The notes below the pieces were generated by a model, which was not told the DNA's origin, made no database searches, and saw only the letters and a program-made list of their open reading frames with translations. A stretch of DNA of 64,000 nucleotides, taken from positions 1-64,000 of the forward strand of contig NW_020847417.1 in the NCBI RefSeq assembly GCF_003704095.1. The letters run 5' to 3'. Positions 12,857 to 52,284 of the stretch are shown here, piece by piece. Source of the stretch: Pocillopora damicornis. Taxonomy: Eukaryota. The stretch's first letter is position 1. Every line of letters starts with the position of its first letter. The position numbers were made by a program, and so were the translations under genes.

Positions 12857-14027
12857 ATGCATCCACTTCTAAAGAAATCATTACTGCGTTTTGGATTCCT
12901 CCACGCGTACGCCATTCTAATTGCTTGGATTTTCACCATGATTGAAAAAAGAGATGAACCTGCTTTCAAAAGAAAGGAGGAGTCGCTGAGTAAACTCAGG
13001 AATGATATGAATAAGAAATATAACATAACCGATGACGACTTTAATAGTTTTGTAAATCGTGCAGCGGCGGCTGTGATTGAGGGTGATGAACTGGACTGGA
13101 CTTTGCTTAACAGTCTCACATTCACCTTGACCACTTTCACCACAATAGGTAAGAGAAAAGGGTCAGCGCATGCCGTGTACAATGTTAATTAAAGCTTGTC
13201 TATTTGGGCAATGAGTATATCCACTTCTTTTTTATTTTAAGTTCTAACAGTTAAGGGGACCTTATCTGTTTGTATTTTCGTTTGTTTTTGTTTTTGTTTT
13301 TTTTGTTTTTGGTTTTTGCCCCTGAGTGTTTGGTGATTTGCTTCTAACCTCTGTACAAATCTTAAATGTAAAGTAATGTAGAGTGGAGCAAAAATTATTC
13401 ATTTTTTTTATTTCAGGATATGGTATCATAACACCTAAAACAGAGCTTGGCAAAGGTATCACAATTCCTGTGTGCCTCCTTGGTATTCTCATCACCATGT
13501 TGGCCTTTAAAACTTCAGGAGAGCTTTTTGCTTCTTCTATTCGCCATCTCGTCATAAAGATAGAAAATAATCTATTTAAAAGGGAGGAGGTAAAGAATTT
13601 AAAGATCAAAAAACTCGTGGCATCATGCACCCTCATGTTTGCTTTGTATATCTTTACAAGTTTCACAGGCGCCTTCATGGAAAAGTGGAATTATGTGGAG
13701 AGCTTCTATGCGTGGTTTGCCACTTTCACCACAATTGGATTCGGCGACTACGTCCATTGTGAAGCGCTTTTAAGGGGCATGGGACGAGGGATAGACAATA
13801 CAGTTCATCTTGTGATATACATCTGCGTACTGTACCTTCCAACCATGATTGGCCTGAGTTGTATGTCATGTATTCTGGGTTGCATTGTGGATTCCATGGA
13901 TCAGATTCGCCACTTTCGTGATGGCTGTATAGATAGCTGCGTACACTTACACTCAAGCATAAGACACAAGCTCTGCTGCAAGAAGGAAAATCAGGTTGAG
14001 TGCCAAAATCAAGTAATTTCTGCCTGA
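12857..14027 (+). CDS. K2P (TASK-like) potassium channel K1, 300 aa
   Basis: Exons 12857-13148 and 13417-14027; P1 TTIG|YGIITP, P2 TTIGFGDYVH; four TM segments; cap sequon KYNIT. Confidence 0.9.
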
Positions 14028-15228
14028 AATTAGTGGAATCGCCAAAAAAGTTTTTGAATTAATCTCGTACCCATGATATTAAATTTTAACCCCCTGACCT
14101 TCCAATAATTACTAATCTTACCACGATCATCCGCGCGAGTGGATTATTTTAGTCAATAGCAACGGCCATCATGTGATTTCTCGTTTTTCATGGCAATTGA
14201 ATTGAACAACGAAATGCGCTTTCTCAGATAACAACCTAACTTATTACGCGCATTAAATAATTCTTAGGATGGGGGTCGGAGGTTGAATGTTCATATACAT
14301 TGAATCAATTTTTTCCCTCCTCGTCACCCTAACGAGTAATTCAGAAGTTGGTGGCTGAATAATAGAAGGGATTATGGTTCTCTCAAATTTTCTGAAAATT
14401 GACTAAGAAAGAGAAATGAAGTAAACAAAGACGGAGACGGCAACGAGAACGTTTTTAACCAAAAGGTTCAATAAGTGGATCAATAACTCAGCCATCATCT
14501 GCAAAACAGCATCGTGAAGTCAACGAGCTATCCATGCATGGTCTGAGGACAGAAGCCCCGTCAACGAATCTTTCAGTATCCATTAGGAACTTAACGCCAG
14601 ATGCGTTAAGCTGAAGTTGAAGTCTGGCGCAGCAAAAGAAGGTATACACATCCAGCCATCCTTAAAAAATACTTTTGGAAATGTTCAGTTTATTTGTTAA
14701 TCGACGTTTCCCTCACCGTAGTAATTCTGACTGCTTAAGATTTAAAGGGATGAATATGCCTAACTCCTGAAAATTAGATCTATATTCTATGCTGAATTTG
14801 ACCTTGCACTGTAAGTCAGAGATTTCGCTAGAGACGCATTCATAGATGACTAGGGAAGAGGTTAATGACTGGAGATGAAGTCATGGTCCAAACAAAGGGA
14901 GAGTAAACGATGATAATAGTGATAACAACGATAACAATGTTAATAACAGTCACTATGGAAACTACAATAGCAATAACAATATGGTTAAACGCCATCCGAT
15001 CGGCCTAAGCCGATCCAAATTAGACTTTGCTCGTAGAGGATTATCAAATGGCTAAGAATTTATCTCTGATCGTGAATATATTGAAAATGCTCATGGCACG
15101 GATTTAAGTCCGTGAACGTTCCAGTTATTGACTATATGTAAGATCACTGGAATTGCTGTATAATAATAGCAACAATATTGAAAAATACCAATAAATAGCG
15201 ATAATTTAACAGTATGTGACTTTAGGTA

Positions 15229-15285
15229 CGGAATTCGAACCCGGGCCACAACGGTGGAAGGCGAACGTTCTCACCATCCCCGCCC
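15229..15285 (-). repeat. tRNA-derived SINE 5' fragment
   Basis: Reverse complement reads gatggtgagaac...cccgggttcgaattcc (A/B box-like); no complete cloverleaf. Confidence 0.5.
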
Positions 15286-49811: not shown

Positions 49812-50124
49812 CTCTGCACCAGATCATTGCAATGGTGAGTTGCAAAAAGAGTCCACTTGGGTCTTCTACCTTAAGTTGAGCAGGAGGAGTTTCTCTCGGG
49901 CATTCATATTTTGACGCCCAGAATTCTTGGATAAAGTCCGGTAGTCCCTTAGCTTTAATTCTTTGAGGAGCCTCTTATACTTGGAAAAACAAAGGATTGT
50001 TCTTTTTAACAGCAATGGACGCTCCAGACATTGCAAAAGGTTCACCAACAACTCTGAGTTCACAATGAGGATCATTCCTTGATTCATATTCCAGGCCCAC
50101 GTGATCTGCGACGAAGATGTCCAG
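49812..50124 (-). pseudogene. Ionotropic glutamate receptor (NMDA-type-like) fragment: S2 lobe end to M4
   Basis: Hand translation in a frame absent from the ORF track: LDIFVADHVGLEYESRNDPHCELRVVGEPFAMSGASIAVKKNNPLFFQV*EAPQRIKAKGLPDFIQEFWASKYECPRETPPAQLKVEDPSGLFLQL. It follows the iGluR pattern LDAFI.D...LEY.....C.L..VGE.F...G..IA..K..P...G....L...W....C.......L......G.F; stop at 49975-49977. Confidence 0.75.
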
Positions 50125-52284
50125 ACTCATAAAAATCAAGCAAAATGATGTAACAATTGTAATGTTGTTATTGTTGTATGTATGTTGTGTTTATTTTCCA
50201 AAATGAACTTTTTCTCTAATTTTGTTCCTAGTTTAGGAAACCAGCAACCACACACAGAGCTTCCATGCTTGAGAGAGCTGAAATAAAGGTGATCAAAACA
50301 AGATTTAACTGAGATTTCGGATTGAAGATTCGTCAACTTGTAAAAGCACACTCCATCCGGGAACGTAGTCACCGTAGCCCAGAGTGGAAAGTGTAGCGAA
50401 CCATGCGTAAAAGCCTTCTACTAAAGTCCAACCTTCTACGTACATTCCTTCTAATCCACCGAGACAAACGGTCAGAATCATGAGAGCAAATGTCACAAAA
50501 ACACTCTTCTTCTTAACGTTTCGAGGTCGTATCCTGCTAAGCAACATTGTCTCGATTGCGTAAACGAAGTCATAAACCAGTTTGGAAATCATTTTTCCAT
50601 TGTTTTTAGAGTTAGCATCGTCAGAGGAACACCAACAAAGGTATATAAAACAGTGACGATTTTTCCAAATGGAGTCTCTGGTGTAATGTGGCCATAACCT
50701 AAAAGAGGCAAAGTGAAATGGTTTAGAAACCTCACGGCCTCTTTTATTTCATGTTAATTTTAGGCTTTTTGATCACACTCCAATAAGATTGAACTGACTG
50801 ACTAAGAGAGACTCGCATGAATCAAGATGAAAAAAAACTTAGTTTTCACGGGCAGGGTGCACCCTATGCGGATTTACTTGGAGCAATACTTCCCAAATAA
50901 TCGAAGTCGGCTTTGAAAAGCTTGTGCAACTTATTTGTTTAGTTTATTCATGTAACATGAGTGCAAAGTTGTGAGACGAATGCAAATAACAAAATGGCGC
51001 GCGCGCGCTGTCAAAATTTCGTTTGTCTTGACTTTCTGTGATGCTTTTTTTCTTGTTTATTATACCCATTTTTAAATCACTGGTGGTGTCTAATTGGTTC
51101 TAATTGATGCGATTCATTCACGAATCGCACCATTTTTTGCTTTAAATCGCATCTTTTTCCCAGCCAATGAGGAGGCTAAACTAAAAACAAAACAACCAAT
51201 CAGATTTTAAGGCTTGTTTAACCGATCAAATTTCAGGAAAATGAAAGACAAAGAGTATCATGTGGCAATTTTGCAACTTTTTTTTTTCTTAACTCTTACT
51301 TTTGCCCCCCAAGAAATGGACATGAATTTAATTTCAGATCGGCTCAGTAATGCATCAATAACATATTTGAACTGACCAAGTCCTGTATTTAGGCGATTTC
51401 AAAATGGATGTAATAAAGTGGTAATTGAAACTCATCTCGTTCAATTTTGATCTGAAATCATACTTGTGATTTCAAATCGAACGAGCACTGCGCACTCGTT
51501 CGGTTTTGAAATCACGCGTATGATTTAAGTCCAAATTGCGCTCCACTCAGTTCAGTTACTGTTATAAATAATTAACAATTATCACATAAACTGCGGTGTC
51601 ATACAAGGATTTCCGGCCCTGAGAAAAGCCCTAACAACACACGTGAAAAAGTATCGTATTTTTTAACATGTGTTGTTAGGGTTTTTAAAAGTAAAGCAGC
51701 ATAAAGGGCTATCGTGTTTATATGATAAACAAAATGATATGATTCAACTCGACATCTCACTCGTTCGCTGTGCTCATTCGTGAGCTATCGAGTTAAACAC
51801 GAGAAGAGAAATTCCATATCTACGCGCGCCCATGTATTATTCTCTATAAAATGTTCAGAGAAATGCGCGCGCCGTGATTGATCAGAACGAGTTCATTATA
51901 TTTCCATAAAGCATGCGCCTTACGTCACACGAGTGCATTGTTGAGATATAATGCACGCACGGTACGTCATCGGTACGAGCGCGCGCAATTCACGATACAT
52001 TTTATAAAAGAAGTAAACAAACTTATTCCTCGAGCATTGTTGAGTTATATAAGCACTTAGGAATTTTTAAGAACACTCGAGANNNNNNNNNNNNNNNNNN
52101 NNNNNNNNNNNNNNNNNNNNNNNNNNNNNNNNNNNNNNNNNNNNNNNNNNNNNNNNNNNNNNNNNNNNNNNNNNNNNNNNNNAAGCAAAAATGTGACTGT
52201 TATCCCTTTGTTATTATTTGGTGTCATGGCTCACCAGTTCGACCGCTTTCCTTTGCCTTGTTTTTGTATGCGTTTTACTAATTG

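What the first reader, a model, noticed from the sequence alone, without database searches (positions are those of the whole stretch)
13417..50698. The TASK extracellular pH-sensor position (GYG-H) is diversified across paralogs: His, Asn or Ile
Seen: the residue after the P1 GYG is His in K2, K6, K7, K8 and K10, Asn in K4 and K5, and Ile in K1. Established: His98, directly after GYG, confers inhibition by external acid in TASK-1/TASK-3, and His-to-Asn substitution strongly reduces it. Inference: the array may encode a graded panel of proton-sensitive and proton-insensitive background K+ channels. If the host is a calcifying coral, this would be a candidate pH-sensing system for the calcifying space, the symbiosome or seawater acidification.
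Basis: partly seen in the sequence, partly recalled or inferred. Interest (0 to 1): 0.75.

Follow-up and report, generated by a model that had tools for sequence, protein, structure and literature searches.

The report
Coral leak-channel array with acid-sensor histidine
A stony coral carries an old cluster of background potassium-channel genes; one branch always keeps the histidine that lets human TASK channels close in acid and is likely acid-inhibited, but in the neighbouring branch that position changes no more than an average site, so a graded pH-sensing panel for skeleton building is not supported.

Summary
Observation confirmed: His in K2, K6, K7, K8, K10; Asn in K4, K5; Ile in K1. But K6 and K10 are broken, K3 lacks the site, and K9 (in a gap) is His in near-identical homologues. 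K4, K5, K7, K8 are spliced in coral RNA. The genes are K2P channels of a cnidarian-only radiation (about 40 loci in this genome), not TASK orthologues: about 26% identity, no X-gate, and TASK plus the His branch is rejected as a clade. The residue varies across the whole K2P family. The real signal is by branch: His is fixed in K6-K10 (44 of 44 homologues), and 34 of 44 end in a TASK-like 14-3-3 tail; Asn is fixed in K5; in K1-K4 the site changes like an average column. Ten named anemone relatives carry no His. TASK midpoints (pH 6.7-7.3) fit neither calcifying fluid (8.5-9) nor symbiosome (~4); the gut cavity at night fits best. His alone does not predict sensitivity (Drosophila TASK7).

The parts
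12857..14027 (+). K1, intact 2-exon K2P gene (exons 12857-13148, 13417-14027; 300 aa), GYG-Ile
   Evidence: Ile in 15 of 15 listed cluster members (of 86), Asn in the Stylophora orthologue; splicing not seen in 4 RNA runs
16678..18076 (-). K2, intact K2P gene (exons 18076-17779, 17306-16678; 308 aa), GYG-His, no 14-3-3-type tail
   Evidence: Stylophora orthologue also His; splicing not seen
20991..21850 (-). K3, broken copy: exon 1 intact, start of exon 2 (post-GYG site, M2) missing, frameshift after second filter
23277..24817 (-). K4, intact K2P gene (exons 24817-24526, 23893-23277; 302 aa), GYG-Asn; 5' UTR exon at 26225-26459
   Evidence: spliced RNA contig in run X1
27447..29656 (-). K5, intact K2P gene of a separate branch (exons 29656-29338, 28066-27447), GYG-Asn
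   Evidence: spliced RNA contig in run X3; Asn in 11 of 11 branch members
31162..32945 (-). K6, broken copy with GYG-His: in-frame stop in exon 1, frameshift in M4
   Evidence: homologues of this branch in other records carry complete tails
34364..35889 (-). K7, intact K2P gene (exons 35889-35592, 35004-34364; 312 aa), GYG-His, tail RPRSASV
   Evidence: P1 intron spliced in 4 of 4 RNA runs from 4 studies
40356..41998 (-). K8, intact K2P gene (exons 41998-41701, 41011-40356; 317 aa), GYG-His, tail ERSTTV
   Evidence: P1 intron spliced in runs X1, X3, X18, and one base off in X7
46417..46995 (-). K9 exon 2, tail RARSATL; post-GYG codon hidden in N gap 46997-47096; a matching exon 1 lies on the + strand at 47844-48047 between gaps
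   Evidence: His in 99%-identical P0036
50275..50698 (-). K10 exon 2, GYG-His, frameshifted near-copy of K9
55198..55495 (-). K9-type exon 1, possibly the first exon of K10

Best explanation
This is an old tandem array of two-pore-domain (K2P) potassium-channel genes from a cnidarian-only radiation, in which one branch (K7, K8, K9 and broken K6, K10) has a fixed His after GYG and is likely inhibited by external acid in the TASK manner, while in the K1-K4 branch the residue drifts. Shown: gene structure, splicing of K4, K5, K7, K8, tree position, His fixed in 44 of 44 branch members, Trp78 and Tyr96 equivalents present, R-x-x-S/T-x-COOH tail in 34 of 44. Inferred: protonated His packs on the Trp78 equivalent and shuts the filter by C-type gating, depolarising the cell; phosphorylation of the tail recruits 14-3-3 and sets surface delivery. 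The mix of H/N/I along the array comes from three old branches lying side by side plus single-base switches, not from a tuned series. If the His branch senses pH, the gut cavity in darkness is the best-fitting fluid (inferred from published pH values only).
For: His invariant over tree length 6.1 where only 19 of 170 other columns are invariant; both CAT and CAC used. Pocket residues from the TASK structures: Trp78 in 6 of 6 intact genes, Thr89 in K7 and K8, Asp in place of Gln77. The same His confers acid block in unrelated subfamilies (TWIK-1 H122, mouse TRESK H132), so TASK membership is not required. Tail motif matches the mode III definition; 1.7% in shuffled tails; 1 of 50 in the K1-K4 branch. 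His paralogues are not one clade (AU p 2.6e-5), at least 12 His/non-His changes on 75 rows. Synonymous sites between paralogues near saturation. Gut-cavity pH from below 7.0 (dark) to above 8.0 (light) in one coral.
Against: No functional data. Drosophila TASK7 keeps the His yet is proton-insensitive, and mutating the His of TASK6 does not remove sensitivity. Trp78 and the Asp77 are shared by the Asn/Ile paralogues, so they are not His-specific partners. Gly82 is not conserved; K7 and K8 have Tyr where TASK has the sealing Phe202. The predicted model has pLDDT under 50 at the filter, so geometry could not be checked. In Stylophora, a close relative, coelenteron pH only falls to 7.6-7.9 in the dark, above TASK midpoints. 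Homologue rows include alleles and close species, so 44 of 44 is not 44 independent cases; 92 of 203 homologues were dropped for lacking a readable site or length.
Confidence: 0.5

Rival explanations
1. The His has a structural role behind the filter, or its pKa lies outside any pH the cells meet; the array is ordinary birth-and-death expansion of leak channels and none of it serves pH sensing.
For: Drosophila TASK6/TASK7 precedent. His occurs in 14 of 39 K2P sequences of this genome and in Nematostella, Actinia and jellyfish channels of other branches. A second array on contig C138 has Y/N/F. At least 5 broken copies in and next to the array. Most observed residues are one base from H, N or Y.
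Against: Sharp rate contrast at this one site: 0 changes in K6-K10 against 9 in K1-K4, while 16 of the 19 columns invariant in the His branch change 4 times or fewer in K1-K4. A structural role does not explain why sister branches tolerate N, D, E.
Confidence: 0.33
2. One reading: the array is a selected, graded panel of proton-sensitive and -insensitive channels serving the calcifying space, the symbiosome or seawater acidification.
For: Both the mixed and the His-fixed branch persist in Stylophora and Oculina. 0 of 10 readable named anemone members of the array's superclade carry His (D5, N3, E1, S1). H/N dominate the mixed branch (44 of 50). TASK-1/3 heterodimers show shifted pH response.
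Against: Average substitution rate at the site in the mixed branch; K1 Ile is a Pocillopora-lineage change from Asn. Calcifying fluid pH 8.5-9, seawater 8.08 and symbiosome ~4 day and night lie outside midpoints of 6.7-7.3. No named Acropora, Montipora or Porites protein fell in the K1-K4 or K6-K10 branches (most rows unnamed). The anemone contrast is one lineage comparison.
Confidence: 0.12

Closest known systems
TASK-1/TASK-3 (KCNK3/KCNK9) and invertebrate TASK/SUP-9
   Same: Best sequence matches in PDB (89 bits TASK-1, 86 TASK-3, 82 TREK-2); His98 and Trp78 equivalents; same M1-P1 loop length and KYN-type cap without cysteine; mode III-type tail in K7-K9.
   Different: About 26% identity against 43-57% for invertebrate TASKs; no VLRFMT X-gate; Gln77 and Gly82 replaced; separate clade (100/100), TASK plus His branch rejected (p 0.001).
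TWIK-1 (H122) and TRESK (mouse H132, human Tyr)
   Same: Non-TASK K2P channels in which the same position gives or removes acid block, including a natural H/Y switch between orthologues.
   Different: Lower match for TWIK-1 (54 bits); no GLG second filter; no vertebrate TRESK was in my trees.
Anemone 'KCNK3/9/15-like' gene models (Nematostella, Exaiptasia, Actinia)
   Same: Nearest non-coral relatives, inside the same superclade; four share the R-x-x-S-x tail.
   Different: Carry Asp, Asn, Glu or Ser after GYG, never His in 10 readable named members; automated names only.
Nematode TWK expansion (47 genes in C. elegans)
   Same: Lineage-specific K2P radiation of similar size; about 40 loci here.
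   Different: Independent radiation; passages of a 623-genome survey describe cnidarians as Kv-expanded and nematodes as K2P-expanded.

Membership tests
K2P channels | Two pore domains with T-x-G-Y/F-G filters, four TM helices, extracellular cap | tested here: met
   PF07885 in 8 of 8 exon-2 products; alignment; all listed fold matches are K2P structures
TASK subfamily | Groups with TASK-1/3/5, SUP-9 in a tree | tested here: not met
   TASK clade 100/100 excludes the array in three trees; AU p 0.00096 for TASK plus His branch
TASK subfamily | Distant co-orthology (whole cnidarian radiation sister to TASK) | tested here: inconclusive
   support 65/37; AU p 0.083 for TASK plus the 40-row superclade; no THIK, TWIK or vertebrate TRESK rows
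TASK subfamily | His98 and Trp78 | tested here: met
   K2, K7, K8 directly, K9 by homologue; Trp in all six intact genes. Not met for His in K1, K4, K5
TASK subfamily | Gln77, Gly82, Thr89, Phe202 network around His98 | tested here: inconclusive
   77 is D/E, 82 is N/I/T, 89 is T in K1, K4, K7, K8, 202 is Y in K7, K8 and F in K1-K5
TASK subfamily | X-gate VLRF[ML]T at the end of M4 | tested here: not met
   0 of 7 array models; 17 of 25 TASK-like representatives
TASK subfamily | C-terminal mode III 14-3-3 motif R-x-x-S/T-x-COOH | tested here: met
   motif present in K7, K8, K9 and 34 of 44 His-branch rows; absent in K1-K5; the strict pattern fits only 7 of 25 TASK-like representatives
TASK subfamily | Inhibition by external acid | not testable with these tools
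   needs electrophysiology

The most novel reading that the evidence does not exclude
Stony corals regained the proton-sensing His at least twice in a K2P lineage whose anemone members carry Asp/Asn/Glu, fixed it in the K6-K10 branch together with a phospho-14-3-3 trafficking tail, and so built a TASK-like acid sensor by convergence; the Asp replacing Gln77 shifts its midpoint towards pH 7.5-8, making it read the day-night pH swing that symbiont photosynthesis imposes on the gut cavity and turn it into membrane voltage.
Probability: 0.15. Interest if true: 0.72.

Novelty: new member of a known kind. Interest (0 to 1): 0.38.

Why it matters
How coral cells sense external pH is largely open; in the papers I found, the tested coral candidates were Hv1 channels and proton transporters, and no coral K2P channel was described. 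The K7/K8 branch gives two expressed, intact, easily cloned candidates with a one-residue control, and a natural H/N/I series for testing how far GYG-His predicts acid gating outside TASK. A K2P radiation of about 40 loci in a coral is also worth recording. If no pH dependence is found, this is an ordinary expanded leak-channel family.

Tried and rejected
Complex prediction of a coral 14-3-3 with the unphosphorylated K7 tail: no answer, score 0.01, not evidence either way. AlphaFold model of K7 (13-row alignment): mean pLDDT 70.6, filter under 50, unusable for His-Trp geometry. Atlas look-alikes of a Stylophora homologue: chordate KCNK17-like clusters only, no help on subfamily. dN/dS between paralogues: dS saturated, no estimate; RNA-contig variants in K7 (8 synonymous, 7 not) and K8 (3, 4) come from a cut list and mixed samples, not used. 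No spliced contig for K1 or K2, and no cover on K6 exon 2, in 4 runs: contigs cannot show absence. A TALK-type basic residue at the start of M4 could not be aligned reliably. Cell-type expression: no paper with coral + calicoblast + 'potassium channel subfamily K'; supplements of PMC12749960 gave no row for these genes, but file 3 is cut and one PDF was unreadable. Two row labels in the tree (Nvec399, Actinostola414 shown as D) were pattern errors: unreadable and Ser; likewise the D/E labels of short rows came from the second pore; these were not counted. Scan look-ups returned nothing on K2P arrays.

Full report
Observation. The window holds a tandem array of two-exon K2P genes, each split by a phase-1 intron inside the first filter. 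Six genes are intact (K1 Ile, K2 His, K4 Asn, K5 Asn, K7 His, K8 His). K6 has a stop in exon 1 and a frameshift in M4, K10 is frameshifted, and K3 lacks the site. K9's site lies in an N gap; a 99%-identical homologue has His. RNA contigs join the P1 intron for K7 (4 of 4 runs laid, 4 studies), K8 (3 of 4 exactly, one a base off), K4 and K5 (one run each in the listed pieces). The position aligns to TASK His98 without gaps from Trp78.

Context. A search of the genome with K7 exon 2 gave 44 matches at about 42 places, with further clusters on contigs C138, C4004 and C4207; a Pfam search added two more genes. Among 39 readable sequences the residue is H14, N12, Y6, D2, I, F, R, A, K. Named homologues are from Pocillopora, Stylophora, Oculina and Orbicella, so the host is a stony coral. 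Both main branches recur on records of equal length in Stylophora and Oculina, and synonymous sites between paralogues are near saturation: the array is old.

Not TASK. PDB matches put TASK-1 (89 bits) only slightly above TREK-2 (82). With nematode SUP-9 as query, array genes rank 23rd or lower of 52 matches. Three trees (71, 76 and 42 rows, the last with a mixture model) place the array in a cnidarian-only clade and keep bilaterian TASK apart at 100/100. TASK plus the His branch is rejected (AU p 0.00096). A distant sister relation of TASK to the whole cnidarian radiation is neither shown nor rejected (65/37; p 0.083); THIK, TWIK and vertebrate TRESK were not available. The X-gate is absent.

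Pattern by branch. I kept 111 of 203 homologues with a readable site and enough length, plus 22 genome rows, and left the site out of the tree. K6-K10 branch: His in 44 of 44, where 19 of 170 other columns are invariant. K5 branch: Asn 11 of 11 (68 of 170 invariant, so weak). K1-K4 branch: N23, H21, K2, I2, S, L; 9 changes against a column median of 7, with 70 of 170 columns changing as often. K1's Ile is in 15 of 15 listed Pocillopora-cluster members, while the Stylophora orthologue has Asn. His paralogues are not one clade (p 2.6e-5) and at least 12 His/non-His changes are needed on 75 rows. Rows include alleles and close species, so they are not independent. Of 11 named anemone proteins in the superclade, 10 are readable and none has His; anemones and jellyfish do have His in other K2P branches.

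K7, K8, K9 end RPRSASV, ERSTTV, RARSATL. The mode III 14-3-3 motif of TASK-1/3 is R-x-x-pS/pT-x-COOH (PMC4760375, passages). It is met by 34 of 44 His-branch rows, 5 of 5 of the C4242 branch, 2 of 2 Actinia relatives, 1 of 50 in K1-K4, 0 of 11 in K5; shuffled tails give 1.7% (15 tails that I chose). It therefore predates the His fixation and was lost in K1-K4. The R-x-R-x-x-S/T form resembles the Akt/SGK consensus (recalled, not from a call). Binding is inferred only.

Mechanism. In TASK-3 and TASK-1, protonated His98 forms a cation-pi contact with Trp78 near Gln77, Gly82 and Thr89 and closes the filter; H98N is much less sensitive; midpoints are about 6.7 and 7.1-7.3 (PMC11046659, passages; bioRxiv 2025.04.23.650279, first quarter and passages). 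The coral channels keep Trp78 and Tyr96, K7/K8 keep Thr89, and position 77 is Asp/Glu. An acid side chain there could raise the pKa (inference), but it is present in Asn/Ile paralogues too. The same His works in TWIK-1 and mouse TRESK, yet Drosophila TASK7 keeps it and is insensitive, and TASK6 does not need it (PMC6790391, passages). I put acid inhibition of the His branch with drift elsewhere at 0.5, no pH role at 0.33, a selected graded panel at 0.12.

Which fluid. Calcifying fluid is pH 8.5-9 (PMC8346283, passages), the symbiosome about 4 in light and dark (PMC8916725, passages), seawater 8.08. A TASK-type His would be nearly always off or always on there. The gut cavity moves from below 7.0 to above 8.0 in one coral (PMC13488293, passages), but only from 7.6-7.9 to 8.7 in Stylophora (PMC10904758, abstract and first part of Results), which would need an alkaline-shifted midpoint.

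In print. Ten library searches listed no paper on coral or cnidarian K2P channels; subscription journals are largely not covered. PMC12749960 (passages; supplements searched, one cut and one unreadable) describes cnidarians as Kv-expanded; its tables may hold K2P counts that I could not see. PMC5593875 and PMC13183375 (passages) added nothing. Databases label these genes automatically as KCNK3/15-like or sup-9-like.

Verdict. Real and correctly read, but variation at this site is normal for K2P channels, and the calcification panel is not supported. What is worth testing is the expressed, His-fixed, 14-3-3-tailed K7/K8 branch. Interest 0.38.

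Noticed in passing
window 36178-39788: RNA contigs of 3 studies join K8's 3' UTR (39788) to K7's 5' UTR exon (36178) with intron-type ends; short sides (26-30 bases). Read-through or a K7 first exon inside K8's last exon.
   Followed up: no
window 27490: All 4 RNA runs carry one extra base in K5's tail; that reading ends GDTKF like homologues ending DTAL, DTTL, ETTL, ETIF (class I PDZ-like, recalled). The window allele ends IQNFKN and also exists in other records.
   Followed up: partly
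window 47844-48047: K9-type exon 1 lies on the + strand between N gaps, opposite to exon 2: probable scaffold mis-orientation. Two more broken K9-like copies lie just beyond the window (G000:C4052:64226, 70728).
   Followed up: partly
G000:C138:40000-78200 (L006-L008, L014, L017-L019, L021, L023): Second K2P array of at least 9 genes from the same superclade, with Tyr, Asn or Phe after GYG.
   Followed up: partly
window 9117-11722: YqaJ-like exonuclease ORF and DDE_Tnp_4 transposase ORF facing each other: a transposon next to the array.
   Followed up: no
window 527-3744: Three exons encoding uromodulin-like D8C domains on the minus strand.
   Followed up: no
window 13417-14027: K1 and its Stylophora orthologue have GIL in place of the G[IL]P motif of M2 found in the other array genes.
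   Followed up: no
G000:C2648:96202-99090 (L057, L058): Two adjacent intronless 14-3-3 genes, plus a further 14-3-3 cluster on C2811.
   Followed up: no
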